64,000 nt of DNA from a bacterium (GTDB taxonomy: Bacteria > Patescibacteriota > Gracilibacteria > UBA1369 > GCA-2718715). Below are positions 2,908 through 34,906 of this stretch, one piece after another (within the stretch, counting starts at the first letter, position 1; each line of letters begins with the position of its first letter). The stretch is taken from the NCBI GenBank assembly GCA_002718715.1, contig PBFJ01000009.1, positions 723 to 64,722 of the forward strand. Reading direction: 5' to 3'. Below the pieces are notes generated by a model. The model did not search any database and had not been told where the DNA came from. It saw only the letters and a list, made by a program, of their open reading frames with translations. Both the position numbers and the translations under genes were made by a program.

Positions 2908-5100
2908 ATGCCAAAAAGACGTAAAAAAAAACCTGAATCACTATTATTGTTTTTATTTAAAAAATTTAAAAAGAAAAAAAGAAGAACCAAAAAATCAGAT
3001 GAACTTCCTATTGAAGTTAAAAGAGAAATATCTGGAATACTTGTAATTCTGGCTGGGATTTTAATTTTACTTTCAAACTTTAATCACCTTGGAGTTCCAG
3101 GAGAAGTTCTAAATAGACTCCTAAAACCCGTTCTTGGTTTAGGAGTAAACATCTTACCTATTTTACTTGGAGTTACAGCAATGATTTTATTTAAAAATGA
3201 AGATCCAAAACCAACTTTTCACAAAATTACAGGTATCTTTTTATTCTTTGTATCATTTCTAAGCTTAGTTCACATTTCACTACCAATGGAACAAATGTAT
3301 GTAGAAGCTTCTAAAGGTAATTTCGGAGGATTTTTAGGATATGTTCCAAATCTTTTACTTGGAGAAATGTTAGGTTTAACAAAAATTTCAAACGTTATAA
3401 TCTACAGTACTGGAATTTTAATTTCCATGATCCTAAGTTTAGATATTTCAATCAAATCATTATTTCAAAATTTATATGCTAGAACAGAAGTCGAAACTAA
3501 AAAAAACAAATCTAAAACTAAAGAAAAAGAAAGCAAAAAACAAAGCTTGGATTTATTTAATGATACTCAAATCAACATTATTAAACCTGAATTTGAAACT
3601 CAATCGGTTAAAAAAGAGAAAAAACCTCAACCAAAGAAAATTCCAAACGAACAAGTCGATCAAATTGATCAAAACACTCTTCAAGAAGCTATTACATGGG
3701 AATACCCATCGGTGGACTTGTTGGAAAATGAAAGTAGCAAAATTCAAATCAAAGATTCAGAACTTCGTAAAAAAGCAGATGAAATCAGAAGAAAACTTGA
3801 ACAGTTTGATATTAAAGTTGGAATGCAAAACGTTCACGTAGGTCCAACAGTGATCCAATACACATTAAAACCAGATGCTGGAGTAAAGTTATCAAAAATC
3901 ACAAATCTTAAAAATGATATAGCTTTAGCCTTAGCTGCAAAATCATTAAGAATCGAGGCTCCCATTCCAGGAAAAAGTTTAGTAGGAATCGAAGTTCCTT
4001 CCGAAAAAAGAGTAACAGTAAAATTAAAAGAAATTATTCTTTCTCAGGATTATCAAAGTATAAGCGAAAAATCAAAATTGGTTTTACCACTTGGAAGAGA
4101 TGTTTCAGGAAGCCCAGTAATAGCTGATCTTCATGACATGCCACACCTTTTAATTGCAGGTGCTACGAATTCAGGTAAATCAGTTTGTATCAATACATTT
4201 TTATTATCCTTAATAATGCAAAACTCCCCTGCTGAACTAAAGATGATCTTAGTGGATCCTAAACAAGTAGAGTTAAGAGACTATAACGATATTCCTCACT
4301 TACTTACTCCAGTGATTGTAGATCCAAATAAAGCTGCTAACGCTCTAAAATGGAGTGTCTCTGAAATGAATAGAAGATACGCAATTTTATCGGAAGCAGG
4401 ATGCAGAAATATTAAAGAATACAATTCTTCAAGAAAAGAAGATGAAAAACAAATGCCAAGTATTTTAATTTTAATCGACGAACTTGCAGATTTAATGATG
4501 GCTAACGGGAAAGAAATAGAAGGATACATTTGTAGACTTGCCCAAATGGCCAGAGCGGTTGGAATGCACTTAATCTTAGCCACTCAAAGACCATCTGTAG
4601 ATGTTATTACAGGTTTAATTAAAGCTAATGTTCCAAGTCGTATTTCATTTTCGGTTTCATCATCAATTGACTCTAGAACTATTTTAGATACAGTTGGAGC
4701 CGAGGACTTACTTGGTAAAGGTGATATGCTTTATTTACAAAAAGATTACTCTAAACCAAGAAGAATCCAAGGTATTTACGCTTCCCCTCTGGAAATTAAA
4801 AAAGTAACAAATTTCCTGAAAATGTCAGACTCTCCAGAATATAGAGATGACATTACAGATAAAAATGCAGGAATCAATAAATCTGACAACCCTTCAATGG
4901 CGGGAATGTCTGAAGATGAACTCTACAAAGATGCCTACGAATGTATTTTACAACATCAAAAAGCATCAGCATCTCTACTTCAAAGAAGATTAAAAGTGGG
5001 ATACGCAAGAGCCGCAAGACTTTTAGATATTTTGGAAGAAAACGGCGTTGTAGGACCCGTAAACGGTGCTAAACCAAGAGAAATTTACATAAAAGAATAA
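2908..5100 (+). CDS. ftsK: DNA translocase FtsK/SpoIIIE
   Basis: N-terminal polytopic membrane domain and a K/E/Q-rich linker. Motor domain with Walker A LIAGATNSGKSVCIN and Walker B ILILIDELADLMM. C-terminal gamma winged-helix ASASLLQRRLKVGYARAARLLDILEENGVVGP. Confidence 0.93.
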   Translation: MPKRRKKKPESLLLFLFKKFKKKKRRTKKSDELPIEVKREISGILVILAGILILLSNFNHLGVPGEVLNRLLKPVLGLGVNILPILLGVTAMILFKNEDPKPTFHKITGIFLFFVSFLSLVHISLPMEQMYVEASKGNFGGFLGYVPNLLLGEMLGLTKISNVIIYSTGILISMILSLDISIKSLFQNLYARTEVETKKNKSKTKEKESKKQSLDLFNDTQINIIKPEFETQSVKKEKKPQPKKIPNEQVDQIDQNTLQEAITWEYPSVDLLENESSKIQIKDSELRKKADEIRRKLEQFDIKVGMQNVHVGPTVIQYTLKPDAGVKLSKITNLKNDIALALAAKSLRIEAPIPGKSLVGIEVPSEKRVTVKLKEIILSQDYQSISEKSKLVLPLGRDVSGSPVIADLHDMPHLLIAGATNSGKSVCINTFLLSLIMQNSPAELKMILVDPKQVELRDYNDIPHLLTPVIVDPNKAANALKWSVSEMNRRYAILSEAGCRNIKEYNSSRKEDEKQMPSILILIDELADLMMANGKEIEGYICRLAQMARAVGMHLILATQRPSVDVITGLIKANVPSRISFSVSSSIDSRTILDTVGAEDLLGKGDMLYLQKDYSKPRRIQGIYASPLEIKKVTNFLKMSDSPEYRDDITDKNAGINKSDNPSMAGMSEDELYKDAYECILQHQKASASLLQRRLKVGYARAARLLDILEENGVVGPVNGAKPREIYIKE

Positions 5101-5106
5101 ACAAAT

Positions 5107-5928
5107 ATGAAAAAAATTTTTATACTTTTACAAATACTATTTATATCAACTTTTGCATCAATTGCATTTGCATCAGAATTAGATGAATTCACTCCAGACG
5201 AGGAATTTTGTAAAACTATTAAAGAAGAAAGATTGCTACAAGGAAGTGATCAAGAAATAATAAAAAGCTGTAAATGTTTTAACATTGAAGATCTAAGAGA
5301 ACATATTCCTGCAAGTGAAAGAAGTGAAGCAGTATTCAGCGAAGTTTGTAGAGATGTAAACATAAAATACAACTGTATATACAAAAACGAGTCAGACAGT
5401 ATTATCACAATTGATAAAATAAAAACTTTAGATCAAAATAACAATTGTTTATTAGATACAAACAGAGAAAAATGTTTAGCAAAATTAGCAAATCTAATGA
5501 AAACATCCCCGGAACGAACAAATAACGCAAGAAGAGATTCATTATTTGGATGCTACGGAAATAGCCTAGAGCCTAAAAATTTAATAGATTATCAAGGAGA
5601 AGACAGAAACATCAACAATTTTGAAGTTTTTGACGAAGAAAAGGGTCTCATAGCAAATACTCAACAAAAAACTCAACTAAAAAAGCTTACCGAAAATCAA
5701 GCTGGACCAGTCATAAGTTTTATCAATATAATAATTGATTATTTGGTTGGAATTATTTTCGTAATTTGTCTAAGTTCATTAATCTACGGAGGTTATAACC
5801 TAATTTTTGCTGGATTTGACTCAGATATGACGGAGAAAGGAAAAAATGCTATCAAATACGCAATAACAGGATTCTTTTTTGTTATGCTTTCATATACAAT
5901 TGTACTTTTAGTTCAAAGTATATTCTAA
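5107..5928 (+). CDS. Secreted Cys-rich protein with a C-terminal two-TM pilin-like (VirB2/TrbC/T4SS-pilin-type) module, paralog 1
   Basis: Signal peptide MKKIFILLQILFISTFASIAFA. Eight Cys in the ectodomain. C-terminus is VGIIFVICLSSLIYGGYNLIFAGFDSDMTEKGKNAIKYAITGFFFVMLSYTIV (helix-loop-helix). It starts 7 nt after the ftsK stop. Confidence 0.6.
   Translation: MKKIFILLQILFISTFASIAFASELDEFTPDEEFCKTIKEERLLQGSDQEIIKSCKCFNIEDLREHIPASERSEAVFSEVCRDVNIKYNCIYKNESDSIITIDKIKTLDQNNNCLLDTNREKCLAKLANLMKTSPERTNNARRDSLFGCYGNSLEPKNLIDYQGEDRNINNFEVFDEEKGLIANTQQKTQLKKLTENQAGPVISFINIIIDYLVGIIFVICLSSLIYGGYNLIFAGFDSDMTEKGKNAIKYAITGFFFVMLSYTIVLLVQSIF
5617..5928 (+). repeat. 312-nt 3' cassette of pilin-like paralog 1. 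It is a near-identical direct repeat of 6624..6935.
   Basis: My direct nucleotide comparison shows both copies start aattttgaagttttt and end caaagtat(a/c)ttctaa. They are collinear with no indels and show scattered substitutions. Confidence 0.85.
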
Positions 5929-5950
5929 AAAAATATATAATTTACAAAAC

Positions 5951-5980
5951 TTGCAAAATACAAGTAAAATATGTTAAAAT
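5951..5980 (+). promoter_or_regulatory. Candidate sigma70-type promoter for pilin-like paralog 2 (TTGCAA-N18-TAAAAT)
   Basis: TTGCAA at 5951-5956 and TAAAAT at 5975-5980, in the 74-nt gap between paralogs 1 and 2. Confidence 0.35.
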
Positions 5981-6002
5981 AATATGAATTAATACACAAA
6001 AC

Positions 6003-6935
6003 TTGCAAAAAAAATTTTTAAAATCACTACTATCAATTCTAATAGTTTTCCTAACATTCGGATTAAAATTTAATCATTCCCATGCAACGGTAGCTGAGAT
6101 ACCAATTGAAAGATGCAACTATCAATTTCCTAGATACGAAGATCTAATTCAAACAATTCAAGATAAAGATTTAATAACAAATAAAGATTTATTTATATGC
6201 CTAGCATTCATCGAAACAAAAGCATTATTAATTATGGACTCCACTCCACAAACACTAGAAGATTTGAACTCAGATCCAAGAATTAAATTATTTAAAGACT
6301 CTTACAATAAAGTATCAGATTGTTTTTATCTATTAGACATACCTACAAACCAAGATGCTAGAAGTATTCAAGAATCAAAATTAATAAACAGTCCGAGTGG
6401 AAAAGTTACTTTAGAAACATTTAAATCAATAGACTCTAAAGGTAACAATAACTGTCAAATAGATACACCTCATGAAATATGTCTTAGCAGACTAGAAAAA
6501 GAAAAAAGAGACGATCCAAGAGGAGTAGATTTTAAAATACAGAATGAGCTATATGGATGCTATGGAAATAGTGAAGCACCTAGAAATTTAATGGATTTAA
6601 GTTCAAACGAAAGAGGAATCAATAATTTTGAAGTTTTTAGCGAAGAAAAAGGGCTTGTCGCCAATACTCAACAAAAAACACAATTGAAAGAACTTACCGA
6701 AAATCAGGCTGGACCAGTCATAGGATTTATAAATATGATAATTGATTATTTAGTAGGAATAGTTTTTGTTTTATGTATGGCCTCGCTAATTTACGGAGGA
6801 TATAATCTAATTTTTGCTGGATTTGATTCAGATATGACCGAAAGAGGAAAAAACTCAATTAAATATGCTATCACAGGATTCTTCTTTATAATGCTTTCTT
6901 ACACAATAGTTATCCTAGTCCAAAGTATCTTCTAA
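6003..6935 (+). CDS. Secreted Cys-rich protein with a C-terminal two-TM pilin-like module, paralog 2 (TTG start)
   Basis: Signal peptide MQKKFLKSLLSILIVFLTFGL. The last ~104 aa are nearly identical to paralog 1 (NNFEVFSEEKGLVANTQQKTQLKELTENQAGPVIGFINMIIDYLVG...LIYGGYNLIFAGFDSDMTERGKNSIKYAITGFFFIMLSY). Confidence 0.6.
   Translation: MQKKFLKSLLSILIVFLTFGLKFNHSHATVAEIPIERCNYQFPRYEDLIQTIQDKDLITNKDLFICLAFIETKALLIMDSTPQTLEDLNSDPRIKLFKDSYNKVSDCFYLLDIPTNQDARSIQESKLINSPSGKVTLETFKSIDSKGNNNCQIDTPHEICLSRLEKEKRDDPRGVDFKIQNELYGCYGNSEAPRNLMDLSSNERGINNFEVFSEEKGLVANTQQKTQLKELTENQAGPVIGFINMIIDYLVGIVFVLCMASLIYGGYNLIFAGFDSDMTERGKNSIKYAITGFFFIMLSYTIVILVQSIF
6624..6935 (+). repeat. 312-nt 3' cassette of pilin-like paralog 2, the partner of 5617..5928
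   Basis: Same as the partner repeat. The upstream halves of the two genes are far more divergent. Confidence 0.85.
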
Positions 6936-6943
6936 TAATTACC

Positions 6944-7690
6944 ATGAAACCTAAAATAAATTTTTTCAAAAAATTACTAAAAACAATAACACTACTTACT
7001 GTAATCATTAGTTTAAATTTTTCTATAATAAAAAACGTAGCTGGAGCAAGGGAGCAAACCGCAAGAGAATCAGAATCAAGAATAGAAATTGAAGAATGGA
7101 GGTCCGAATGTAATAATATCAATATAAATAAACCTGAATACGAAGAGATGAAAACAGTTATTCAAACCTACGAAGATAGCTTAGAGAATTTTATTACATT
7201 TTTAGATCAACCTTTAAGTACAAAAAATAACGTATTTATAAAGCAAACATGTGTCCCTGAAACAACTGTTACTAGTTCAAAGTACAAGTGTAAATCCAAA
7301 GTAACATGTACATGTACCCCGCAATTTCCTAAGATAAGAGGATCAGATCAAGAAAAAAAAGGGATAAGCTGCAGAAGAGTACAATTTATAATTTATAAAT
7401 CAGGACAAGAATTAGCTGCAAAATATGTAAATTTAATATACAGATGGGTAAGTTCTATAGTGGGTATAGTTGCAGTGATTTATATAATAGTAAATGCTAT
7501 AATTATTTCGAGTGCTCAAAATGATTCAGGACAAGTAACTGCTGCAAAAGATAGAATAATGCAATCCTTAATAGCACTAGTCGTACTTTTAAGCGCAAGT
7601 ATTATCTTATATGCAATAAACCCAACTTTCTTTACAGTAGACAGAGAGCTCCAATCCCCAGCTACTCAAACACAAAATAATCAAAGATAA
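6944..7690 (+). CDS. Secreted protein with a C-terminal two-TM pilin-like module, paralog 3
   Basis: N-terminal hydrophobic signal/anchor LLKTITLLTVIISLNF. Cys cluster CVPETTVTSSKYKCKSKVTCTC. C-terminus is SSIVGIVAVIYIIVNAIIISSAQNDSGQVTAAKDRIMQSLIALVVLLSASIILYAI. Confidence 0.55.
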   Translation: MKPKINFFKKLLKTITLLTVIISLNFSIIKNVAGAREQTARESESRIEIEEWRSECNNININKPEYEEMKTVIQTYEDSLENFITFLDQPLSTKNNVFIKQTCVPETTVTSSKYKCKSKVTCTCTPQFPKIRGSDQEKKGISCRRVQFIIYKSGQELAAKYVNLIYRWVSSIVGIVAVIYIIVNAIIISSAQNDSGQVTAAKDRIMQSLIALVVLLSASIILYAINPTFFTVDRELQSPATQTQNNQR

Positions 7691-7736
7691 AATACTCAAC
7701 AATAAACTAATAAATAAATTAATCTAAAATTAAAAA

Positions 7737-8162
7737 ATGAAATCTGTATTTAAAAAATTTTTAATCGTAATACTCATTTGCACAAGTCTAACTTTTGGCA
7801 CAGTAATTGCTAGTGCAGAAGAGAAAGTAAATCAAAATACGCAAAGTTTCGGAATATATAAACCCAGAAAACTACCCGGACCAAGATTTACACAAGACAA
7901 TCCAACAACTAAAGAAAAACAAAGAACAATCTTAAATCAATTTCTACCAAAATTCAGTATTAGATTACTAGTATTTATCACAATAGCATCCCTACTTGGT
8001 TTAATCTATGGAGGATTCTTATATATTTCAGATCTTGGAGAGGAGCAAAATTTAGAACAAGCTAAAAAAGCCATAACGTTTTCAATAGTCGGTTTAATAT
8101 TAGCATTTTTAAGCTTTGCTATTGTTCAAATTATCAATGTAATTCCATTAGACTTCGTCTAG
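7737..8162 (+). CDS. Small secreted two-TM pilin-like protein, paralog 4
   Basis: Signal peptide MKSVFKKFLIVILICTSLTFGTVIASA. C-terminus is LLVFITIASLLGLIYGGFLYISDLGEEQNLEQAKKAITFSIVGLILAFLSFAIV. Confidence 0.6.
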   Translation: MKSVFKKFLIVILICTSLTFGTVIASAEEKVNQNTQSFGIYKPRKLPGPRFTQDNPTTKEKQRTILNQFLPKFSIRLLVFITIASLLGLIYGGFLYISDLGEEQNLEQAKKAITFSIVGLILAFLSFAIVQIINVIPLDFV

Positions 8163-8180
8163 TTTTTAAAATAAAAAAAA

Positions 8181-8723
8181 ATGAAAAAAATGAAAAAATT
8201 AATCTTACTTTTATCTTTAGTATACTTACTAAGCGTAAACATCATCACATTTGCCAGAACAACTGCTACTCAAGGTTCACCTCAACAATCAGCATCTGAA
8301 TCAAGTACCCGAGAAACATCCGCAGATAGATTCAACGAGCAAAATAGACAAAGCTATCAAGATTTAAGAAACTCACTAATACCAAAACAAACAGATTTTA
8401 TTCAAAAATCTAAGAATTTAGACATAGACAGCAATACTAAAATTTCAGAAAGTGAACAAAAACAAATTCAATTCACTGAAGGAAATCTTGAAACTCAAAT
8501 CCTACCAAGAATCCTTAAAATATTAATCTACAGTTCTATTTTAATTTTTACGGGTTTATTCATCTACGCAGGTATTATTTTAATCATTTCAAATGGGGAT
8601 GAAGCCTCTTACACAGAAGTAAAAAATCTTATAGTCAATACACTTATTGGTGTAGGAGTAATCCTAGGATCATATGCAATTATCTATGGACTTGTTACTA
8701 TATTACAAAATTTAAGACCTTAA
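8181..8723 (+). CDS. Small secreted two-TM pilin-like protein, paralog 5
   Basis: Signal peptide MKKMKKLILLLSLVYLLSVNIITFA. C-terminus is ILIYSSILIFTGLFIYAGIILIISNGDEASYTEVKNLIVNTLIGVGVILGSYAII. Confidence 0.6.
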   Translation: MKKMKKLILLLSLVYLLSVNIITFARTTATQGSPQQSASESSTRETSADRFNEQNRQSYQDLRNSLIPKQTDFIQKSKNLDIDSNTKISESEQKQIQFTEGNLETQILPRILKILIYSSILIFTGLFIYAGIILIISNGDEASYTEVKNLIVNTLIGVGVILGSYAIIYGLVTILQNLRP

Positions 8724-8725
8724 AT

Positions 8726-9253
8726 ATGTTAAAAAAAATAATATTCAGCTTTCTAGCTATCAATCTAATTTTCCTATCTCAAATCAGTCTAAATAATAAC
8801 GTATATGCCAGCACACCTGACAGCGTAGACTTCTTAGAAGACGAGTTAAAACCAAGATACCTTCCTGAAATCACTGATCCTAAAATATCAACACAAGAAA
8901 CAAGATCAGGATCTGGAGAAGATAGTCAAAAGGCTGTTAAAAAAACTGAAAGATTTGTGGGTGACTTAATTGTTACAGCCCTACAATTTTTAGGGGGAAC
9001 AATTGTACTATTAATCATTATCTACGCTTTTAAAATGGTTATTGCATTTGGTAACGAAGAAGAAATCACTAACTCTAAAAAAGCTCTAGGAAACCTAGCC
9101 CTAGGCCTTCTAATTATAATGCTATCTTACTCAATTACACTTTTCATATTAGACCTTACATTAATTCCTCAAGAACTCGAAGGAGAAGCTCAAAACCAAG
9201 AAGCACAAAGCTCTGAAACAACACAGGACACGTCAGAAAGTCAATCAAGCTAA
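8726..9253 (+). CDS. Small secreted two-TM pilin-like protein, paralog 6
   Basis: Signal peptide MLKKIIFSFLAINLIFLSQISL. C-terminus is LQFLGGTIVLLIIIYAFKMVIAFGNEEEITNSKKALGNLALGLLIIMLSYSITLF, followed by an acidic Q/E/S tail. Confidence 0.6.
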   Translation: MLKKIIFSFLAINLIFLSQISLNNNVYASTPDSVDFLEDELKPRYLPEITDPKISTQETRSGSGEDSQKAVKKTERFVGDLIVTALQFLGGTIVLLIIIYAFKMVIAFGNEEEITNSKKALGNLALGLLIIMLSYSITLFILDLTLIPQELEGEAQNQEAQSSETTQDTSESQSS

Positions 9254-9256
9254 AAT

Positions 9257-9280
9257 AAAAAAGCCCCTCAGGGCTTTTTT
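9257..9280. terminator. Bidirectional intrinsic terminator between the pilin-like array and metG
   Basis: The sequence aaaaagccc-ctca-gggcttttt forms a GC stem flanked by an A-run and a T-run, between convergent genes. Confidence 0.75.
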
Positions 9281-10771
9281 TTAATCCGTTAAATTTGGAA
9301 ACAAGGGAGAAATTGTATTTACTTTATCCCCTACTTTGTAGGTCAAAGCCAAATTAAAATTTTCTAAATTTAAAATTTGCTGCATTTCTTGAGATTTTTT
9401 AGTTAGAATTGGACTTAAAAAACAAGCTAAAAAGCGAATACCTTCAAGTAAGTTAGATAAAACTACATTTAATCTATCAAGATTCCCCTCTTTATTTAAA
9501 GACCAAGGTTTATTTTCCTCGACATATTTGTTTAAAAAACTAGAAAATTCCAAAATACTTTCATTCATTTTTCTAACCTCAAAATTTTCCAAGTATTTAA
9601 AAACATCTGACTCTAACTTATCTTTTGCATCTTTAATTTCAGTAAAATCATCAGACTTAATTTCTCCATCACAAAACTTATGACTCATAGTTACTACTCT
9701 TGAAAATAAATTTCCTATGTTGGACTGTAAATCCGAAGCATAAATTTCTTGTAATCTATCTTCAGAAAAATCTCCGTCTGATCCCATTGGCATTTCTCGG
9801 TTAATAGAAAATCTTACAACATCTGATCCATATTTTTCAATTACAGCAATTGGATCAATTACATTTCCAATAGATTTACTCATTTTTTGACCATCAACTA
9901 AAATCATTCCATGAGCATAGATTTTACTAACCGGTTTAATTCCTAAACTCAAACACATTGCTGGAAAATAAATAGCATGAAATTTTAAAATATCTTTCCC
10001 AATAATATTTTCAACGCTAGGCCAAAAATTCTCAAATTCTTGCATGTTTTCAGGATATCCAAGCACAGTCAAATAATTACTCAAAGCATCAATCCAAACG
10101 TACATCACATGATCAGCATCATTTGGAACCTCAACTCCCCACTCTAACGAACTTTTAGGTCGAGAAACGGAAAAATCTCCTAAATGTTCAATCATATTTA
10201 AAACCTCTTTGGCTCTAAATTCTGGCTGTATATCGATTTCTTTCTTTTCAATCATCTCTTTAATTCTTGGTAAATATTTTGAAAGTCTAAAAAAATAATT
10301 ACTCTCATTCATTTTAACTGGTGGGACTCCAAAACCAGGACAATTACCATCAATTAAATCTGATTCTTTAATAAAACTTTCTGATCCAACACAGTAAAGA
10401 CCTTCATAATCTTTAAGATAAAAATCATCATTTTCCGAAATTTTCATCCAAATATCCTTAACTAATTTTTCGTGACTTCCATCTGAAGTCCTTACAAATC
10501 GATGTTCAGATAAATCTAATAAATCATTTAAACCATAAAAATTCTGAACTAATTGATCCACCCAAGCTTGCGGACTCAGTCCGTTACTTTCTGCTTTTTG
10601 CTGAACTTTAGTTCCATGCTCATCAACTCCTGTTGAAAACAAAGTTTCGTATCCATACAAATTGTACATTCTAACCATGATATCCGTTTGCATGTTAGTA
10701 AATGCATGCCCCATATGTGGCTTACCATTTGGATAATAAATTGGTGTAGTTAGAAATTTGTACTTCGACAT
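9281..10771 (-). CDS. metG: Methionyl-tRNA synthetase
   Basis: Class I signatures TTPIYYPNGKPHMGHAFT (HIGH region) and GQKMSKSIGNVIDP (KMSKS). Confidence 0.93.
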   Translation of the reverse strand: MSKYKFLTTPIYYPNGKPHMGHAFTNMQTDIMVRMYNLYGYETLFSTGVDEHGTKVQQKAESNGLSPQAWVDQLVQNFYGLNDLLDLSEHRFVRTSDGSHEKLVKDIWMKISENDDFYLKDYEGLYCVGSESFIKESDLIDGNCPGFGVPPVKMNESNYFFRLSKYLPRIKEMIEKKEIDIQPEFRAKEVLNMIEHLGDFSVSRPKSSLEWGVEVPNDADHVMYVWIDALSNYLTVLGYPENMQEFENFWPSVENIIGKDILKFHAIYFPAMCLSLGIKPVSKIYAHGMILVDGQKMSKSIGNVIDPIAVIEKYGSDVVRFSINREMPMGSDGDFSEDRLQEIYASDLQSNIGNLFSRVVTMSHKFCDGEIKSDDFTEIKDAKDKLESDVFKYLENFEVRKMNESILEFSSFLNKYVEENKPWSLNKEGNLDRLNVVLSNLLEGIRFLACFLSPILTKKSQEMQQILNLENFNLALTYKVGDKVNTISPLFPNLTD

Positions 10772-10873: not shown

Positions 10874-11998
10874 CTAGTAATTAATATCTAAACATTCAAA
10901 TTGATATCCAGTAAATGGAACAAAATCTTCTAATTCACCTTCATCATCTTCAATAATAAAATGTAACTCTGTTAAAGCTAAATTATTTACAGAAATATGA
11001 GTAGGAACTGCATTTGCCGGAAGTGAAAGTAAAGCTGATTCAATACATGGAGTTACTTGTCTTTCAACATGGTTAGCGTATGAAATTGAAAAATCTGATT
11101 CAAAAACAAATGGAATATTTTCACCAAAATCATAATTATTTTCTCTTTTATTATTAAAATCTTCTAACGTAAGAAATATAAAATTATAAACATTATTACT
11201 TTCTGTTTCTTCAAGAACTGGAGCAGGATTAACCGTAGTTTGTTTTGAATTATCAATAAGATTTACATCAAAGAAAAATAAAAGTTTAATCGTTAACGCT
11301 AGAGTTAGCATGCTTAAAAGTGGAGAATCATCTATTACATTTAAAATATTTTTAGCTAAATCTACAAAGTCTTTTATAGAAACTTTAGATTTTGAATCAA
11401 CTGAATCAAGATTTTCTTCAGATTGTACTTCTTCTGAAACAGTTAAATCTTCTAACAATCTATCAGGTCTATCAGCAAGATTTCTTGGTTTTAAAGCTTC
11501 TGCTTCTCTGTCTGCATAAAGTTTAGCTAAATCTAAATTAGCTTTTACACCATTTGAAATAGTCATCATTTTTGAATCAAATTCATATTGAGCAATTTGC
11601 TCTTTCAATTGACCTGTAGATTGAAGTGTAGAGAAAGCAGCTTCAGAGATTTCAGTTTTACCATCAATCAAATGGGTATATAACTTTTCACCAGCTTCTA
11701 ATTCAAATTTAAGAGATTCAATAGCTTTTTTATACTCTTTTACAGTAGATAAAGACGGGAATCTTGAACTTAGTTTAGCCAAATGATTTTCTCCTGTTTC
11801 TGGAGAAATAGAAGCCAAATAAGCTTGCTCTTGCAAAGAAAGAGGCTTCGCAATTTCTCTAGCTAAATCAGCAGAATTCATCACTCCTTGTTGTCTTCTA
11901 TTCAGTCTATTCAAGGCTTCTGCGAGTTGTTCAGAAGATGGTCTTTTTTTATTAAGAATAAATGGTGATACTAGGTTTTTTCCAATTTGCTTTAACAT
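10874..11998 (-). CDS. Hypothetical protein with one central hydrophobic segment; no recognisable domain
   Basis: Long ORF with normal composition. Central hydrophobic stretch LLSMLTLALTIKLLFFF. It has its own terminator. I recognise no family. Confidence 0.55.
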   Translation of the reverse strand: MLKQIGKNLVSPFILNKKRPSSEQLAEALNRLNRRQQGVMNSADLAREIAKPLSLQEQAYLASISPETGENHLAKLSSRFPSLSTVKEYKKAIESLKFELEAGEKLYTHLIDGKTEISEAAFSTLQSTGQLKEQIAQYEFDSKMMTISNGVKANLDLAKLYADREAEALKPRNLADRPDRLLEDLTVSEEVQSEENLDSVDSKSKVSIKDFVDLAKNILNVIDDSPLLSMLTLALTIKLLFFFDVNLIDNSKQTTVNPAPVLEETESNNVYNFIFLTLEDFNNKRENNYDFGENIPFVFESDFSISYANHVERQVTPCIESALLSLPANAVPTHISVNNLALTELHFIIEDDEGELEDFVPFTGYQFECLDINY

Positions 11999-18731: not shown

Positions 18732-18769
18732 AAAGTCTTTAGTTTAAAGAAAACTTAAAGACTTTTTTT
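18732..18769 (+). terminator. Intrinsic terminator after the pta-ackA-deoA operon
   Basis: A hairpin aagtcttta...taaagactt is followed by a T7 run. It overlaps the 3' end of the convergent gene. Confidence 0.5.
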
Positions 18770-20589
18770 GAATTAGAAATATATATTTCTTCATTGTTAT
18801 AATCTACAATAAAATTTTCAACATTATCAATGTTTGGAAAACTATAAACCTTATTATAATCTAAAATATTTGATTCAACATCTTTATAATACCTAAATAT
18901 CTTATTAGATTTTGAATCAAGAGCATAAATAAAAGAATGATCAAAATCAGCAAAAACATCTTTAAGAGATTCTATTTTAACATATGGTTGATTTTGTAAA
19001 ACAAAACTTGAATCAATATCACCTTTAAAATACTTATTGAATTGGAATTTATCTGTGAATGCATACACTGCACCGTCAATTGCAATTTGAGTGGCACTTT
19101 CTAAAAAGTCCTGAGATTGCGTAAAATAATTACTTTTGGAATAGTAACCATTATTAACTCTTTGAAGTTTAAATATATTTTTATCCTGGTTATCTAAGAA
19201 GTATAATCTTTTACCATAAGCAAAAATATCTACAATAGAATCAGAAAATTCATTACTAACATTTAAACTTCTAATTCCTGAAATATTTAGTTCTTTTAGT
19301 TTGTTTTCATTATCTAAATAAATTATAGATTCATAGTCTGCACTGAATGTTTTTACTCTAGGGTTAAAATTTTCATCAAAACCTAAAATTTTCTGACTTT
19401 GGGTAGAAGCTAGATTTTGATAAAGTGATTTATTAGATGCAACCATTAAATCACCACCAGATAAAAACATTGTTTTTATTTCATGGCTTGGGTTTAAGCT
19501 TTCCATATCAAAAATTTCAAGTGGTTCATCTATTACAGAAACATTATCTAAAGTTAACATAACTTCCTGAATCTCATCCTTAAGATCATTTAAAACTTTG
19601 CTCTTTTGATTTAAACTCTCTAATTTATTAATTTTATCATTAGCTAAATTCAATGTGTAAAAGGCTCTATCAAGTGAAACTTCACTTTTAGCATTTATAA
19701 TTGTATTTTTTATGTTTTGGATTTCAGTAGCAACATCGATTCCCTCTTGGGTTTTTACATTTTTATTAAAAGTAAATACTAAACCGGAAATCAAAACAAT
19801 AATTAACAATAAAGTAATAAAAATCAAAAATATTCGTGAACTATGAGCACTTAAATTTAAATTTTTTATTGAAAATTTTGAACCTGTATTAGTAATTGAA
19901 TCTTCACTATCGTTAGTTTCTTTTAATTCAGAAATATAAGAAGACATTATACCAACTAAATGTTCTAAATTAGGATTCAAAGTCTCAAGTAAGCCTTCCT
20001 TAAAAGTATCAATATTTCTACTATACTTTAAAAAGTCATTAAAAGAAATATAACGAAGTATTCTATCTGATGAAATTATAAAATGATCACCAACTTGAAA
20101 TTCACCAGAAGCTACATTTGAAAAGAATTCATCTTGTGAAGCATCGACAAGAGCGTCAGAAATTTGATTTATCTGACCAGTTCTTAGCAAATACATATCT
20201 ATATCACCACGTTTAGTAAAAAATATCTTATTATTTACTAACAAAATTGCACCAACATCTATCTTTGGTAAATCTTCTTCTTTTAAATCAGTTCCATCAA
20301 AAAATTCCTCATAAAAAGTATTAACTTTTCGTAATCCTGATTCAAATCCAGCATAAGGATCTTTTTGTAATAATTTTAATAATTCAATTCTAAAATTATC
20401 AACTAATAAATCTGAAAACTCTGAAGCCTTTTCCATGTCTAAATTTTGAATTTTAATAAGAAATAAAACTTCAGCATTAAAATTCTCATCAGATAAATCT
20501 AATTCATATCCTTCTATATAGGTTTTCTCAGAAATTTCTTGATTATTGTTTGAAGTAAAAAATTCAACTTTTGAGTCAAAAAAATACAT
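18739..20589 (-). CDS. Large bitopic membrane protein, function unknown. It has a cytoplasmic N-domain, one TM and a ~350-aa external domain.
   Basis: TM IFLIFITLLLIIVLISGLVFTF at about residues 255-276. I am not confident of any family assignment. Confidence 0.55.
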   Translation of the reverse strand: MYFFDSKVEFFTSNNNQEISEKTYIEGYELDLSDENFNAEVLFLIKIQNLDMEKASEFSDLLVDNFRIELLKLLQKDPYAGFESGLRKVNTFYEEFFDGTDLKEEDLPKIDVGAILLVNNKIFFTKRGDIDMYLLRTGQINQISDALVDASQDEFFSNVASGEFQVGDHFIISSDRILRYISFNDFLKYSRNIDTFKEGLLETLNPNLEHLVGIMSSYISELKETNDSEDSITNTGSKFSIKNLNLSAHSSRIFLIFITLLLIIVLISGLVFTFNKNVKTQEGIDVATEIQNIKNTIINAKSEVSLDRAFYTLNLANDKINKLESLNQKSKVLNDLKDEIQEVMLTLDNVSVIDEPLEIFDMESLNPSHEIKTMFLSGGDLMVASNKSLYQNLASTQSQKILGFDENFNPRVKTFSADYESIIYLDNENKLKELNISGIRSLNVSNEFSDSIVDIFAYGKRLYFLDNQDKNIFKLQRVNNGYYSKSNYFTQSQDFLESATQIAIDGAVYAFTDKFQFNKYFKGDIDSSFVLQNQPYVKIESLKDVFADFDHSFIYALDSKSNKIFRYYKDVESNILDYNKVYSFPNIDNVENFIVDYNNEEIYISNSKKVFKFSLN

Positions 20590-22811: not shown

Positions 22812-23987
22812 ATGAAGTCAATATATCCAAAAATCATCAGTCTTAGTATCCTATCTATACTAGGACTTTCTTTATTTCTAACCAACATTGCAGTAGCTCA
22901 ATTAAGTGATGTTCCAAATCATTTATACAAAAGAGAAATTCAAGGTTTATTAGATTCTGGTTGTATTAAAGGTTACCCAGATAATACCTTTAAACCAGAT
23001 AAACTTGTAAGCAGAGTAGAAACACTAAAATTCATTTTAGAATGTATGCAAATGCCTGAAATTTATAGTGAAGAAAAATTTAAACTACCAAAAAATGCAG
23101 TTGTTCTTGTAAATAATCAAGAAATAAAATTAGACCAGGAAAGTGAAGTAACATTTAAATTACCTTTTAATCCAAATCTATACTCAGATGTATCATTTTT
23201 AGATATAGACACAAACTCTTGGTATATTCCATACTTAAAAGAAGCTGTTATAAGAAAACTTATATCTGGATATGTAGACAACACATTCAAACCACTGAAT
23301 AATGTTAAAAAGAAAGAATTTTTCACGATCCTATACAGAGCTGTACCAGAAAACCTAAAAACTGGACTCACACAAGAAGCAATTGCTTTAGACGTGAATG
23401 AAAAAGATTGGTCATACGAAGCTATACAGTTTTTCCTAGAAAATAAAATATTAGACCTAGGTGAAAAAAGAATATTCAATCCTGATAAAGAATTAAACAG
23501 AGGTCACATAGCTAAATTTATTTTTGATTATTTAAGATGGGAAGAAACAAAACTTAATCCTATTAAAGAGGTGGTAAAAGAAGTTATTAAAGAGGTACCA
23601 AATCCAGAAATAAAACCTGAAGAAGACAACACTCCTGAACAAGTAGATACTAATACTCTTACTCCAACCAAAGATGAAAACCAAGTTGGATTTAAAACAA
23701 GTGGAAAAGCTAGTTTTTATGCTGATTCATTAGCAGGAAATAAGACAGCATCAGGAGATATTTATGATCCAGAAAGATTTATGGCAGCTCATAAGACCCT
23801 TGCATTTGGAACTATTGTAAAAGTTACCAATGTGAGCAACGGAAAATGGGTAAAAGTTGTTATTCAAGATAGAGGTCCATACGCCAAAAACAGATTAATA
23901 GACCTATCAAAAAGTTCATTTCAAGCACTTGACGACTTAAGCAAAGGTCTCATTAATGTAGAAATTGAAATACTAGAAACTCCTTAA
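22812..23987 (+). CDS. SLH-domain cell-wall-anchored RlpA-like (double-psi beta-barrel) lytic transglycosylase
   Basis: Signal peptide. SLH-like repeats (SDVPNHLYKREIQGLLDSGCIKGYPDNTFKPDKLVSRVE and SGYVDNTFKP). C-terminal GKASFYADSLAGNKTASGDIYDPERFMAAHKTLAFGTIVKVTN...VVIQDRGPY is RlpA/DPBB. Confidence 0.8.
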   Translation: MKSIYPKIISLSILSILGLSLFLTNIAVAQLSDVPNHLYKREIQGLLDSGCIKGYPDNTFKPDKLVSRVETLKFILECMQMPEIYSEEKFKLPKNAVVLVNNQEIKLDQESEVTFKLPFNPNLYSDVSFLDIDTNSWYIPYLKEAVIRKLISGYVDNTFKPLNNVKKKEFFTILYRAVPENLKTGLTQEAIALDVNEKDWSYEAIQFFLENKILDLGEKRIFNPDKELNRGHIAKFIFDYLRWEETKLNPIKEVVKEVIKEVPNPEIKPEEDNTPEQVDTNTLTPTKDENQVGFKTSGKASFYADSLAGNKTASGDIYDPERFMAAHKTLAFGTIVKVTNVSNGKWVKVVIQDRGPYAKNRLIDLSKSSFQALDDLSKGLINVEIEILETP

Positions 23988-33361: not shown

Positions 33362-34906
33362 CTAGAAGTTAATCGAATCCAATAGTAAGTTTTTATCAAC
33401 AGAAGATATTTCTAAATTAATACCTGAATCTTGGTCTAAACTTAAAACAGATGTTGAGGTTAATTTATTAAAAGTATCTAATGAAAAATTATTAATCTGA
33501 TTTTCAATCTTAAGTATAAGGTCTGTTTTTTCTTCAGGAATAAAATTTCGTAACAAATAAAGAGTTTTTAAAACAGTAAATTTATTTTTAGAATATTTTA
33601 AGTTAATAACATCAATATTATTTTCTAAAATGTGAAGGTATGAATTTATAATATCAACATCAATAATATCTGAATAATAAACAAATAAAACTTCTAGAAA
33701 ATCAGATTTCAAAGGCAGTAAAAACTCTAACTCTAACACATTGGAATTAATATCAATATTAGTAGTTACCCATTTAATAAAGAATGAATACAAATTAGTT
33801 TTAGATAAATCATCTAAAGAGGATTTATTTAATTCATCTCTAAAATCAATAATTTCTGCTTTTAATTTATCTAAACTATCATTAAAAGAATCTAAATCTT
33901 TCTTAAGACCATAATTCACAACCTTATTATAAACAAGCTTTATAATATCTAATTGATTATTAAATCTATCAAATTCTGAAATTTCAATCATGTTCGATAA
34001 TTTTAAAGAAATTAACATTTTATTAATCTCATACAAAGAAAGATCTCTAGAAGCTAAATATTTATCCACAGTTGACTTTCTTAACTGTTTATCTAAGTCT
34101 ATATTTTTAAGAATAAAAAGATTATTAGATTTTATAAGCTGATCATTAAAAAGTGAGATTTTGAAAGAATCACCGGCTTTTAAATTGTAAGTATTTGAAT
34201 TAAAATTATTACAATCTAAAGTTAAATCATTCTTAAAATTTTTGATATAAAGAGCCGAATTAGCAACCTTAATATAAAAAACTGAGTCGTTCAAGGATTG
34301 AACATCACAAATAGGAGTCTTAATTTTAAAATCAAGCGAAGAATTAAAATTAGAGGTAAAGTTAACCCAATATTCACCATCTAAGGCAGTAAGCTCAAAA
34401 TTAGTTTGTTCATTAGAATGATGAAATTGATCAAATACAAAATAAGAATCATTAGAAGTTCTAAATTCTGAAAAATCAGATAATTTCAAATTAGAAAAAG
34501 ATGTAGTACTTATTTTATCACCTTCAAGCAAATTAGCCTTTTGAAAAACAGATTTATTTTTAAGTCTATTAATCGTAAAGTCAGAATTAGATTCTAAAAA
34601 AGGAGAAAAGTCAGCTTGAGAGGTTGATATAAAAACGGGCAAAGCTAAATTAGCAAAAATTACAACAAGCATCATAAAAGAAGCATACTGTAATTTTTGT
34701 AACTTAAAACCTTCAATAAAAGCATTAACTTTTATTTTAAATAAAATTAAGAACTTCTTAAACAAGCTCAATTTAACAGATTGAATAGAATCCTTAATTT
34801 GATTTTTAAAATGAATATTCGAAAGCATTTGATTTTTATCATCAAATTTCACATTTTGGATAGCGATCTTTAATTCTTTTTCAAAATTTTTCATAAAAAT
34901 ATTCAT
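33362..34906 (-). CDS. Bitopic membrane protein downstream of the ECF sigma factor. It is a candidate anti-sigma/sensor, otherwise unknown.
   Basis: TM ASFMMLVVIFANLALPVFIS at about residues 75-95, with a large external domain. Its start is 28 nt after the sigma gene stop. No zf-HC2 motif is visible. Confidence 0.45.
   Translation of the reverse strand: MNIFMKNFEKELKIAIQNVKFDDKNQMLSNIHFKNQIKDSIQSVKLSLFKKFLILFKIKVNAFIEGFKLQKLQYASFMMLVVIFANLALPVFISTSQADFSPFLESNSDFTINRLKNKSVFQKANLLEGDKISTTSFSNLKLSDFSEFRTSNDSYFVFDQFHHSNEQTNFELTALDGEYWVNFTSNFNSSLDFKIKTPICDVQSLNDSVFYIKVANSALYIKNFKNDLTLDCNNFNSNTYNLKAGDSFKISLFNDQLIKSNNLFILKNIDLDKQLRKSTVDKYLASRDLSLYEINKMLISLKLSNMIEISEFDRFNNQLDIIKLVYNKVVNYGLKKDLDSFNDSLDKLKAEIIDFRDELNKSSLDDLSKTNLYSFFIKWVTTNIDINSNVLELEFLLPLKSDFLEVLFVYYSDIIDVDIINSYLHILENNIDVINLKYSKNKFTVLKTLYLLRNFIPEEKTDLILKIENQINNFSLDTFNKLTSTSVLSLDQDSGINLEISSVDKNLLLDSINF

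What the first reader, a model, noticed from the sequence alone, without database searches (positions are those of the whole stretch)
5107..9253. Six-gene tandem array of secreted proteins sharing a pilin-like C-terminal helix-loop-helix membrane module, directly behind ftsK
- Six consecutive same-strand ORFs have gaps of 2-75 nt, and the first starts 7 nt after the ftsK stop.
- All six share one architecture: a cleavable-looking signal peptide, a variable ectodomain of roughly 60-230 aa, then TM helix, a short polar loop containing G/S-D/E/N...K, and a second TM helix. Examples are LIYGGYNLIFAGFDSDMTEKGKNAIKYAITGFFFVMLSY, LIYGGFLYISDLGEEQNLEQAKKAITFSIVGLILAFLSF, FIYAGIILIISNGDEASYTEVKNLIVNTLIGVGVILGSY and IIYAFKMVIAFGNEEEITNSKKALGNLALGLLIIMLSY.
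- This topology and loop pattern match what I remember of VirB2/TrbC and the 'T4SS pilin' family common in CPR and Gram-positive conjugation loci.
- No VirB4, VirB6, VirD4 or relaxase gene is visible anywhere in the window.
- The array could therefore encode subunits or adhesins of a surface filament whose assembly machinery is elsewhere or unknown. The ectodomains would be the diversified, host- or partner-facing part.
Basis: partly seen in the sequence, partly recalled or inferred. Interest (0 to 1): 0.72.

Follow-up and report, generated by a model that had tools for sequence, protein, structure and literature searches.

The report
VirB2-like pilin gene array, Patescibacteria
Six neighbouring genes in an uncultured marine ultrasmall (CPR/Patescibacteria) bacterium encode VirB2-like type IV secretion pilins, a kind of tandem array already described in this phylum; the new detail here is that their outward-facing domains differ sharply between closely related strains while the membrane or pilus core stays conserved.

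Summary
Six co-oriented genes (5107-9253) follow ftsK. Each encodes a signal-peptide-like N-terminus, a variable ectodomain and a C-terminal two-helix hairpin.

All six belong to Pfam PF18895 (T4SS_pilin). Four pass the gathering score. All six are the top hits of a profile built only from external family members (E 6e-22 to 3e-10).

RpoB places the genome among Peregrinibacteria, Gracilibacteria and other Patescibacteria. Tandem arrays of 2-11 divergent VirB2-like pilins are already published for this phylum: 441 arrays in Quinonero-Coronel 2025, and an essential six-pilin array in Southlakia epibionticum (Wang 2023).

No VirB4, VirB6, VirD4 or relaxase lies in the window or within 10 kb on either side. 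That is common for such arrays.

Findings added here:
- The order ftsK, P1-P6, metG is fixed across every contig recovered from this lineage. Distant CPR arrays are not ftsK-linked.
- Three members carry unusually large ectodomains (about 134-216 aa).
- The array is a sharply bounded allelic island. Ectodomains are 34-66% identical, against 76-100% for the modules and 86-99% for FtsK, MetG and GltX.
- Synonymous divergence in the array is 2-10 times that of the flanks in three of four strain comparisons.

Pilus formation and the assembly machinery remain untested.

The parts
2908..5100 (+). ftsK (context): a bona fide chromosomal DNA translocase. Its stop codon lies 6 nt before P1, so it is probably co-transcribed with the array.
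   Evidence: Pfam FtsK_4TM, FtsK_alpha, FtsK_SpoIIIE (212.6 bits) and FtsK_gamma. No terminator-like site on the + strand between ftsK and P6. The tight ftsK-P1 junction is conserved in L001, L022, L023, L024 and L029.
5107..5928 (+). P1: 273-aa pilin with a large, mostly helical, Cys-containing ectodomain. The pilin hairpin module is aa 196-273 (nt 5692-5925).
   Evidence: PF18895 36.7 bits (gathering score 26.6). Hydrophobic segments at aa 4-22, 208-226 and 251-269. AF2 model: ectodomain aa 30-165 at pLDDT about 80; hairpin H201-236 and H239-272. External profile E 1.7e-17.
6003..6935 (+). P2: 310-aa paralog of P1 (TTG start). The two share 65% identity over the C-terminal 182 aa. Module aa 233-310 (nt 6699-6932).
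   Evidence: PF18895 38 bits. blastp P1/P2 65% over 182 aa; modules 87% identical. Orthologs use the same start.
6944..7690 (+). P3: 248-aa pilin with a Cys-rich ectodomain of about 134 aa and a 16-aa C-terminal tail. Module aa 156-232 (nt 7409-7639).
   Evidence: PF18895 36.1 bits. TM segments at aa 170-188 and 205-223. External profile E 3.2e-10.
7737..8162 (+). P4: 141-aa pilin of canonical size, and a candidate major subunit. Module aa 65-141 (nt 7929-8159).
   Evidence: PF18895 26.9 bits. Best match to the external family profile, E 6e-22. AF2 hairpin H58-98 and H103-135 at pLDDT above 90. Module 100% conserved against L001 despite dS 0.53.
8181..8723 (+). P5: 180-aa pilin with a low-complexity ectodomain rich in Q, S, E and T. 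Module aa 101-180 (nt 8481-8720).
   Evidence: PF18895 21.2 bits, E 3.1e-4, below the gathering score. External profile E 2.9e-14. TM segments at aa 118-136 and 150-168.
8726..9253 (+). P6: 175-aa pilin with a 27-aa acidic C-terminal tail. Module aa 69-148 (nt 8930-9169).
   Evidence: PF18895 24.1 bits, E 3.8e-5, below the gathering score. External profile E 9.1e-17. TM segments at aa 81-99 and 124-142.
9257..9282 (.). Bidirectional intrinsic-terminator-like hairpin between the convergent P6 and metG stops. It closes the array's transcription unit.
   Evidence: AAAAAAGCCC-CTCA-GGGCTTTTTTTT: 10 pairs on the - strand, with a T-run after the stem on the + strand as well.

Best explanation
The six genes encode paralogous VirB2-like pilins of the Patescibacteria type IV secretion system (Pfam T4SS_pilin, PF18895).

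Proposed mechanism, step by step:
1. Each precursor is exported by Sec and its signal peptide is removed (inferred).
2. This leaves a helical hairpin in the cytoplasmic membrane. The N-terminal ectodomain and the C-terminus are outside, and the short polar loop with its invariant Lys faces the cytoplasm (inferred from the topology logic of VirB2/TraA pilins).
3. A VirB4-powered, monoderm-type T4SS encoded elsewhere in the genome extracts the hairpins and assembles them into a pilus or a short cell-wall-spanning conduit (inferred, not shown).
4. In that structure the strongly conserved hairpins form the shaft.
5. The ectodomains are displayed on the outside, where they contact the host or partner cell. 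They are small in P4-P6 and large globular domains in P1-P3.

Shown here:
- Family membership.
- The architecture.
- A stable six-position synteny (ftsK, P1-P6, metG) across the lineage.
- Strong purifying selection on the modules.
- The array behaves as a sharply bounded allelic island whose ectodomains differ greatly between otherwise similar strains. This fits recombinational exchange or long-term maintenance of alleles under host-driven diversifying selection.
For: Family membership:
- PF18895 hits on all six proteins.
- An external-only family profile gives E 6e-22 to 3e-10 for the six, and 0.007 for the next ORF.
- The family bridges to classical pilins: 11 of 45 aligned relatives also hit PF04956 TrbC/VirB2 (best 2.6e-8) and one hits CagC.

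Architecture:
- Signal-like segment plus two C-terminal TM helices.
- Confident AF2 hairpin in P4 (pLDDT above 90) and a hairpin in P1 at pLDDT 72-76.

Taxonomy:
- RpoB's nearest named relatives are Ca. Peregrinibacteria, Ca. Gracilibacteria and Patescibacteria group bacteria, at 65-69% identity.

Precedent:
- 441 arrays of 2-11 VirB2-like pilins with mean identity 25% in Patescibacteria (PMC12102498).
- The six-pilin array of S. epibionticum is essential (PMC10633639; PMC12857230).
- Module identity among the non-duplicate paralogs here is 15-33%, matching that description.

Real, selected genes:
- omega is 0.04-0.05 for the modules, 0.23-0.36 for the ectodomains and 0.07-0.12 for the flanks.

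Synteny:
- The same gene order is found in L001, L017, L022, L023 and L024-L031.

Allelic island:
- L023 flanks are 95-99% identical at the protein level, against 54-63% for P1-P3. Ectodomains are 34-50% identical and modules 85-91%.
- dS is 0.20 in the flanks, against 1.3 and about 2.1 in the array.
- The identity drop starts at the ftsK stop and not at the scaffold gap. In L028, a gap-free contig, it ends at the metG stop.

Machinery elsewhere is normal:
- Three of five sampled distant loci also lack T4SS genes within about 10 kb.
- The pilin gene is near virB4 in only 1135 of 1948 assemblies.
Against: - No VirB4, VirB3, TrsD or VirB6 was seen in 84 kb around the array. The rest of the genome could not be inspected, so T4SS dependence is an inference.
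- No T4SS pilus has yet been visualised in any Patescibacterium.
- Foldseek and sequence searches against the PDB give no significant match to solved conjugative pilins. The best is the A. pernix conjugation pilus 8dfu, at E 2.2 and 7.3.
- None of the six proteins hits PF04956 directly. NCBIfam NF045849 scores are below its cut-off.
- Globular N-terminal domains of 134-216 aa are far larger than in any characterised VirB2 or TraA pilin and might be sterically incompatible with a tightly packed helical filament.
- The same module occurs as 2-16 tandem repeats inside single polypeptides elsewhere. That is hard to reconcile with a simple filament subunit.
- dS values in the array are near saturation, so their magnitudes are rough.
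Confidence: 0.6

Rival explanations
1. The proteins are membrane-anchored surface proteins or adhesins. The T4SS_pilin hairpin serves only as a C-terminal two-helix membrane anchor, or as a membrane-embedded part of a translocon. The proteins are not polymerised into an extracellular filament, and the ectodomains act at the cell surface directly.
For: - P1-P3 have large globular ectodomains.
- Poly-pilin proteins with 2-16 hairpins in one chain exist, suggesting the module can be a permanent membrane element.
- No machinery is nearby.
- No pilus has been observed in Patescibacteria so far.
Against: - The hairpin is conserved far more strongly than a mere anchor would require. Modules of P2 and P4 are 100% identical at dS 0.2-0.5, and omega is 0.04-0.05.
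- Specific motifs (IYGG, an invariant Lys, LSY/LSF) are shared across a family of more than 58,000 clusters.
- The family is homologous to TrbC/VirB2.
- It clusters with VirB6-like genes in other CPR genomes.
Confidence: 0.25
2. The array functions with FtsK. The conserved 6-nt ftsK-P1 junction would reflect a functional couple in which the FtsK-family translocase powers DNA movement through a pilin-lined conduit, as FtsK-like TcpA and TraB do in Gram-positive conjugation. Alternatively, pilin production is tied to cell division.
For: - The ftsK-to-P1 adjacency, with a gap of about 4-7 nt, is conserved in every contig of the lineage that covers the junction.
- There is no terminator between the two genes.
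Against: - This FtsK has the full chromosomal architecture, including the KOPS-reading gamma domain.
- It evolves like a housekeeping gene, with omega 0.03.
- None of five sampled pilin loci in other CPR genomes is next to ftsK.
- The allelic island begins exactly after the ftsK stop, so ftsK does not co-vary with the array.
Confidence: 0.05
3. The proteins are unrelated small membrane proteins that resemble pilins only through hydrophobic composition. Examples would be holin-like proteins, bacteriocin or immunity proteins, or DctQ-like TRAP subunits (the name some JGI records give to relatives).
For: - Weak Pfam hits to DctQ, DUF350 and similar families.
- JGI names two relatives 'TRAP-type transporter small permease'.
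- Helical hairpins are structurally non-specific.
Against: - All those hits are far below their gathering scores. PF18895 is the top hit for all six proteins and for 45 of 45 relatives.
- Other TM-rich proteins in the window (YidC, ComEC, MraY, FtsK) do not match the family profile.
- There are no TRAP partner genes nearby.
Confidence: 0.04

Closest known systems
Patescibacteria VirB2-like pilin arrays. Examples: the six essential pilins in the T4SS locus SEML1_0006-0019 of Ca. Southlakia epibionticum ML1, the 'Sec secreted array' of Ca. Nanosynbacter lyticus TM7x, and the 441 arrays surveyed by Quinonero-Coronel et al. 2025.
   Same: - Same Pfam family (PF18895).
- Same phylum.
- Tandem, co-oriented arrays of 2-11 genes (six here).
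- Paralogs structurally alike but only about 25% identical.
- Signal peptide plus two-helix hairpin.
- No relaxase or coupling protein nearby.

   Different: - Here the array is not inside a T4SS cluster. It is wedged between ftsK and metG.
- The organism is a marine relative of Peregrinibacteria and Gracilibacteria, not a Saccharimonadia.
- Three members carry ectodomains of 134-216 aa, whereas typical family members are 90-140 aa in total.
- P1 and P2 are a recent duplicate pair, with modules 87% identical. That is above the 54% maximum quoted for arrays.
- Essentiality is unknown.
Classical conjugative pilins of Gram-negative T4SSs: VirB2 and TrbC (PF04956), and F-pilin TraA.
   Same: - A small Sec-dependent precursor.
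- A two-helix hydrophobic hairpin with a short polar or basic loop.
- Sequence-level bridging through intermediate family members that hit both PF18895 and PF04956.
   Different: - None of the six proteins hits PF04956 directly.
- No significant structural or sequence match to solved pilus structures.
- Monoderm host.
- Long N-terminal ectodomains.
- No evidence for cyclisation or acetylation-type processing.
- No linked VirB5, VirB6 or VirB4.
VirB2 paralog arrays of intracellular pathogens (Bartonella, Anaplasma phagocytophilum), as cited in PMC12102498.
   Same: Tandem amplification and sequence variation of T4SS pilin genes, interpreted as surface variation for interacting with hosts.
   Different: - Those are diderm pathogens of eukaryotes, and their arrays are linked to virB operons.
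- Here the six positions are orthologously stable.
- Variation here is allelic between strains, not copy-number or expression switching.
Mycoplasma ICE pilin-like conjugal transfer protein (NCBIfam NF045849, Mbov_0395 / MMCAP2_0565 family).
   Same: It is the top NCBIfam hit for five of the six proteins (not P5), over the same hairpin region (E 4e-8 to 2.4e-4). It is a monoderm-type conjugation context.
   Different: - All scores (20.7-32.8 bits) are below the 40-bit cut-off, and P5 has no hit to this family.
- There is no ICE context here; the neighbours are housekeeping genes.
Archaeal Ced/Ted-type conjugation pili (Aeropyrum pernix pilus, PDB 8dfu).
   Same: It is the only pilin that appears in both fold searches of the hairpin (rank 4, TM 0.60 on the target; rank 7, TM 0.64).
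   Different: E-values of 2.2 and 7.3 are not significant. Any helical hairpin can give such scores.

Membership tests
Pfam PF18895 T4SS_pilin | HMM score at or above the gathering score (26.6 bits) | tested here: met
   P1 scores 36.7, P2 38.0, P3 36.1 and P4 26.9 bits, so all four pass. P5 (21.2 bits, E 3.1e-4) and P6 (24.1 bits, E 3.8e-5) fall just below. An external-only family profile recovers P5 and P6 at E 2.9e-14 and 9.1e-17.
Pfam PF18895 T4SS_pilin | Architecture: N-terminal signal peptide followed by two hydrophobic helices joined by a short polar loop | tested here: met
   Hydropathy segments. AF2 hairpins H58-98/H103-135 in P4 and H201-236/H239-272 in P1. Signal-peptide cleavage itself is inferred from AxA-like motifs, because SignalP was not available.
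Patescibacteria VirB2-like pilin array (Quinonero-Coronel 2025; Wang 2023) | Two or more pilin genes in tandem, or separated by at most one gene, with low mutual identity (mean about 25%) | tested here: met
   Six consecutive genes with gaps of 2-74 nt. Module identity is 15-33%, except 87% for P1/P2.
Patescibacteria VirB2-like pilin array (Quinonero-Coronel 2025; Wang 2023) | The host genome belongs to Patescibacteria/CPR | tested here: met
   RpoB's best named relatives are Ca. Peregrinibacteria, Ca. Gracilibacteria and Patescibacteria group bacteria at 65-69% identity. No formal phylogeny was made.
Patescibacteria VirB2-like pilin array (Quinonero-Coronel 2025; Wang 2023) | A VirB4-type T4SS is present in the same genome. 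Linkage is not required: only 1135 of 1948 assemblies have the pilin gene near virB4. | not testable with these tools
   None in the 64 kb window or within 10 kb on either side. The other contigs of the MAG could not be retrieved.
Patescibacteria VirB2-like pilin array (Quinonero-Coronel 2025; Wang 2023) | Assembly into a T4SS-dependent extracellular pilus, and a requirement for epibiotic growth | not testable with these tools
   This needs microscopy and genetics. It has not yet been shown for any Patescibacterium beyond the essentiality of the genes in S. epibionticum.
Pfam PF04956 TrbC/VirB2 pilin | HMM match to PF04956 | tested here: not met
   None of the six proteins hits PF04956 at E up to 1. 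However, 11 of 45 aligned family relatives do (best 2.6e-8), which indicates superfamily-level homology.
Conjugative pilin fold (F, T and pED208 pili; archaeal Ced pili) | Significant structural similarity to a solved pilin subunit | tested here: inconclusive
   Foldseek against the PDB gave no match at E <= 0.001. Entry 8dfu ranked 4 and 7, with E 2.2 and 7.3. A two-helix hairpin is too simple to discriminate. The profile search of PDB sequences found nothing.
NCBIfam NF045849 Mbov_0395 pilin-like conjugal transfer protein | Score at or above the 40-bit cut-off | tested here: not met
   Scores are 20.7-32.8 bits for five proteins, and there is no hit for P5.

The most novel reading that the evidence does not exclude
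The array may be a six-position, recombining host-recognition system.
- Large ectodomains with a conserved cysteine framework are fused to VirB2-like hairpins and decorate a heteropolymeric T4SS pilus.
- Whole-array alleles with deep coalescence are swapped or maintained among strains.
- This would be a CPR counterpart of variable pilin or O-antigen loci, and it would set which host strains the epibiont can attach to.
- In this marine clade the array has been uncoupled from the T4SS locus and hard-wired downstream of ftsK. That might couple pilus production to cell division or swarmer-cell formation.
Probability: 0.15. Interest if true: 0.7.

Novelty: new member of a known kind. Interest (0 to 1): 0.4.

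Why it matters
The role of the Patescibacteria T4SS and its pilin arrays is an open question. The genes are essential in the one species tested, but their function is described as 'completely unknown' (PMC11665869), and no pilus has been seen.

This locus does not change that picture. It does add concrete, testable support for the published guess that pilin diversity serves host adaptation:
- The hairpin modules are under very strong purifying selection.
- The ectodomains form a sharply bounded, deeply diverged allelic island between strains that are otherwise similar.

It also shows three further things:
- Pilin arrays occur in a marine Peregrinibacteria/Gracilibacteria-like lineage, remote from any T4SS genes.
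- Some family members carry large globular ectodomains.
- All six proteins are still annotated only as 'hypothetical protein' in the public records.

Tried and rejected
1. Foldseek of the P4 and P1 models against the PDB gave no significant hits. Helical hairpins match Mediator subunits, efflux adaptors and the like equally well. The P1 ectodomain has no detectable fold relative.
2. A profile search of PDB sequences found only chance TM matches.
3. NCBIfam hits were all below their cut-offs.
4. The genome-contig scan with FtsK, meant to survey ftsK-linked arrays, returned only one true relative (L001). The other 11 loci were unrelated Firmicutes, Bacteroidota and similar, and were not used.
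5. The supplement of PMC12102498 was searched for this MAG's identifiers to learn its T4SS content. They were not listed.
6. The promoter scan gave 27 promoter-like sites against 33.3 expected by chance, so no promoter can be claimed. The hits in the 74-nt P1-P2 gap are uninformative in 29% GC DNA.
7. I suspected that the L023 contrast (near-identical flanks, divergent array) was a chimeric scaffold, because of a 100-N gap inside ftsK. This was rejected. Identity stays at 95% (DNA) and 99% (protein) beyond the gap and drops only at the ftsK stop. The gap-free contig L028 shows the same contrast at the metG end.
8. I suspected that the multi-module hits were stop-codon read-through of tandem genes. 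This was rejected, because they have a single signal peptide and no internal Met or signal segments.
9. I considered a lipoprotein or sortase anchor. No lipobox or LPXTG motif was seen in the sequences (by eye).
10. I could not locate VirB4 in this genome. No tool allowed access to the MAG's other contigs or to walk more than 10 kb beyond the window.

Full report
OBSERVATION.

The six ORFs exist exactly as described: P1 5107-5928 (273 aa), P2 6003-6935 (310 aa, TTG start), P3 6944-7690 (248), P4 7737-8162 (141), P5 8181-8723 (180) and P6 8726-9253 (175). All are on the + strand. The stop-to-start gaps are 6, 74, 8, 46, 18 and 2 nt.

The upstream gene (2908-5100) is a complete FtsK with the 4TM, alpha, SpoIIIE and gamma domains. 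The downstream gene is a convergent methionyl-tRNA synthetase-like gene.

Each protein starts with a Lys-rich n-region, then a hydrophobic stretch and a small-x-small motif (AFA|SE, SHA|TV, AGA|RE, ASA|EE, TFA|RT, VYA|ST). Each ends with two hydrophobic helices separated by a short polar loop. Signal-peptide cleavage is inferred, because no SignalP-type tool was available.

A palindromic hairpin with flanking A and T runs (9257-9282) lies between the P6 and metG stops. It is the only convincing terminator. None lies between ftsK and P6 on the + strand. Promoter-like hits are not above the shuffled expectation.

WHAT THE PROTEINS ARE.

- Pfam PF18895 (T4SS_pilin) is the top hit for all six, over the hairpin. 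P1-P4 pass the gathering score. P5 and P6 fall just below it, at E 3e-4 and 4e-5.
- As an independent test, I built a profile from 40 family members from other organisms and searched all six-frame ORFs of the window. The six proteins are the six best hits (E 6e-22 to 3e-10). The next ORF scores 0.007, and the window's other multi-TM proteins do not match.
- A profile of the six modules finds no further copy in the window.
- The same profile finds 58,450 representative clusters at E <= 1e-3 among 1.84 billion proteins, so the family is very large.
- None of the six hits classical TrbC/VirB2 (PF04956) directly. However, 11 of 45 aligned relatives hit both families (best 2.6e-8) and one hits CagC. 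This supports superfamily-level homology with VirB2.
- AlphaFold2 models give a confident hairpin for P4 (H58-98, a 4-residue loop, H103-135, pLDDT above 90).
- For P1 the model shows a mostly alpha-helical globular ectodomain (aa 30-165, pLDDT about 80), a flexible linker and the hairpin.
- Foldseek and PDB sequence searches give nothing significant. The archaeal A. pernix conjugation pilus appears in both lists, but at E 2.2 and 7.3. The structural test is therefore inconclusive, as expected for a two-helix hairpin.

ORGANISM AND CONTEXT.

The window has about 29% GC and is dense in housekeeping genes. It comes from a marine Tara MAG labelled only 'bacterium', in which all six proteins are annotated 'hypothetical protein'.

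RpoB's nearest named relatives are Candidatus Peregrinibacteria, Candidatus Gracilibacteria and 'Patescibacteria group' bacteria, at 65-69% identity. Long ORFs read through with table 11, so the genome uses the standard code.

No VirB4, VirB6, VirD4 or relaxase is present. Pfam on the ten unassigned or large ORFs finds none. The 10 kb beyond each window end holds FtsH, HSP20, SecA and others on one side, and rpoC, rpsL, rpsG, fusA and tuf on the other.

WHAT IS ALREADY KNOWN.

- Quinonero-Coronel et al. 2025 (PMC12102498) searched 3,035 Patescibacteria genomes with PF18895 and PF04956. They report VirB2-like pilins in 1,948 VirB4-containing assemblies, near virB4 in only 1,135 of them.
[quoted passage not shown] They speculate that the diversity helps adaptation to different host strains.
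- In the class Gracilibacteria they found TrsD and VirB3 mostly unlinked from virB4, and VirB6 undetectable.
- Wang et al. 2023 (PMC10633639) showed that the pilin series inside the T4SS cluster of S. epibionticum is essential.
- A 2025 review describes six structurally conserved, sequence-divergent VirB2-like pilins there, and notes that pili are only a possibility so far (PMC12857230).
- The role of the system is called 'completely unknown' (PMC11665869).

The finding is thus a new member of a known kind.

WHAT IS SPECIFIC TO THIS LOCUS.

(i) Position.
- The order ftsK, P1-P6, metG is preserved in every contig of this lineage that I could retrieve: L001, L017, L022, L023 and L024-L031.
- Five pilin loci from distant CPR genomes are never next to ftsK. 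Two sit beside giant TrbL_3/VirB6-like genes (L016, L020). Three have no T4SS gene within about 10 kb (L021, L032, L033).
- The ftsK linkage is therefore a lineage-specific location, not a general functional coupling.

(ii) Size.
- Typical family members are 90-140 aa, and P4 is canonical.
- P1-P3 carry ectodomains of about 134-216 aa.
- The P1/P2 type has only 17 detectable relatives, all in this lineage.
- Long members do exist elsewhere, for example a 462-aa protein at the head of the L021 array.

(iii) Evolution.
- In the alignment of the P1/P2 subfamily, almost all invariant columns lie in the stalk and hairpin. The N-terminal half keeps little more than a cysteine framework.
- Against the sister genome L001, the modules of P2 and P4 are 100% identical despite dS of 0.2-0.5. 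omega is about 0.05 for modules, 0.36 for ectodomains and 0.07 for flanks.
- Against L023, the flanking TilS, RNHCP protein and FtsK are 95-99% identical, but P1-P3 are 54-63% identical. Their ectodomains are 34-50% identical and their modules 85-91%.
- L022 and L028 show the same contrast. FtsK, MetG and GltX are 90-94% identical, against 49-75% for the pilins.
- Synonymous divergence inside the array is far above the flanks in three of four comparisons. For L023 it is 0.20 (flanks) against 1.3 (modules) and about 2.1 (ectodomains). For L028 it is 0.52 against 1.8 and 1.6. For L022 it is 0.82 against 2.1 and 1.6. Values near saturation are rough, but the raw pS difference (0.17 against 0.62-0.71 for L023) is robust.
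- Against L001 the array's dS (0.28-0.37) is no higher than the flanks (0.45), so those two genomes appear to share one allele class.
- The boundaries are sharp and coincide with the ftsK stop (L023, L022) and the metG stop (L028). They are not explained by the N-gap in the L023 scaffold.
- The array is therefore an allelic island with a much deeper coalescence than its surroundings. This points to recombinational exchange or long-term maintenance of alleles. Strong purifying selection acts on the hairpins, and relaxed or diversifying selection acts on the ectodomains.
- The number and order of the six positions are stable, which argues that the paralogs are not redundant.

MECHANISM (best-supported; steps marked).

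- Shown: family membership, architecture, selection pattern and synteny.
- Inferred from established VirB2/TraA biology: Sec export and signal-peptide removal leave a membrane hairpin with the N-terminus and C-terminus outside and the loop inside. A VirB4-driven T4SS extracts and polymerises the subunits. The termini, and so the ectodomains, are exposed on the filament surface.
- Hypothesis: P4 is canonical in size, matches the family best and has an invariant module, so it may be the major subunit. The large-ectodomain P1-P3 may be minor or tip, host-binding subunits.

Overall confidence is about 0.6. The main rival, at about 0.25, is that the hairpin is a permanent membrane element and that the proteins act as anchored surface proteins. 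The existence of single polypeptides with 2-16 tandem hairpin modules elsewhere keeps that rival alive. A functional couple with FtsK is unlikely, at about 0.05.

VERDICT.

This is a new member of a known kind, with some extra population-genetic and architectural detail. Interest is moderate (0.4). A specialist would not be surprised by the array itself. The sharply bounded allelic island and the large-ectodomain pilins give a concrete handle on the open question of what the Patescibacteria T4SS pilins do.

Noticed in passing
proteins P0109, P0116, P0144, P0178 and others (not in the window): Many proteins in public data carry 2-16 tandem T4SS_pilin hairpin modules in one polypeptide, for example 6 modules in 552 aa and 16 in 1775 aa. 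They have a single N-terminal signal peptide and no internal start or signal segments. They therefore look like genuine 'poly-pilin' fusions and not read-through of tandem genes. This is hard to reconcile with a simple filament subunit.
   Followed up: partly
L016 9183-9650; L020 10648-11085; L013 13003-13353: A small heat-shock protein gene (HSP20) lies directly beside pilin arrays in two unrelated CPR loci. In this lineage it lies three genes upstream of ftsK. This may be coincidence, or it may be a recurrent neighbour.
   Followed up: no
window 10874-11998 (-): A 374-aa acidic orphan protein with no Pfam match lies next to metG. It evolves fast (omega 0.52 against L001; 53% identical in L028, where MetG is 94%) and gives no hit in L022. 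It may be another variable surface protein bordering the array.
   Followed up: partly
window 22812-23987 (+): A protein with two S-layer homology (SLH) domains plus a C-terminal DPBB_1 (RlpA-like lytic transglycosylase) domain. This is an SLH-anchored cell-wall enzyme in a Patescibacteria genome.
   Followed up: no
window 18739-20589 (-), 33362-34906 (-), 52559-53497 (-), 54984-56186 (-), 43174-43935 (+), 47705-48220 (+): Six sizeable ORFs (171-616 aa) have no Pfam family at E <= 0.01, apart from one spurious Med9 hit. They are lineage-specific proteins of unknown function.
   Followed up: no
window 5610-5928 vs 6617-6935: The 3' parts of P1 and P2 are a recent duplication. They are about 83% identical at the DNA level against each other's orthologs, and the modules are 87% identical at the protein level. 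In several other strains the module of the P1 ortholog looks more like the P2 type (alignment A3). This hints at gene conversion between the two positions.
   Followed up: no
L017 (ENA contig north_1__contig_41054_pilon): In this long-read assembly of a related strain, ftsK, ftsH, the pilins and gltX are all split into fragments. This is almost certainly frameshift error in the assembly and not pseudogenisation.
   Followed up: no
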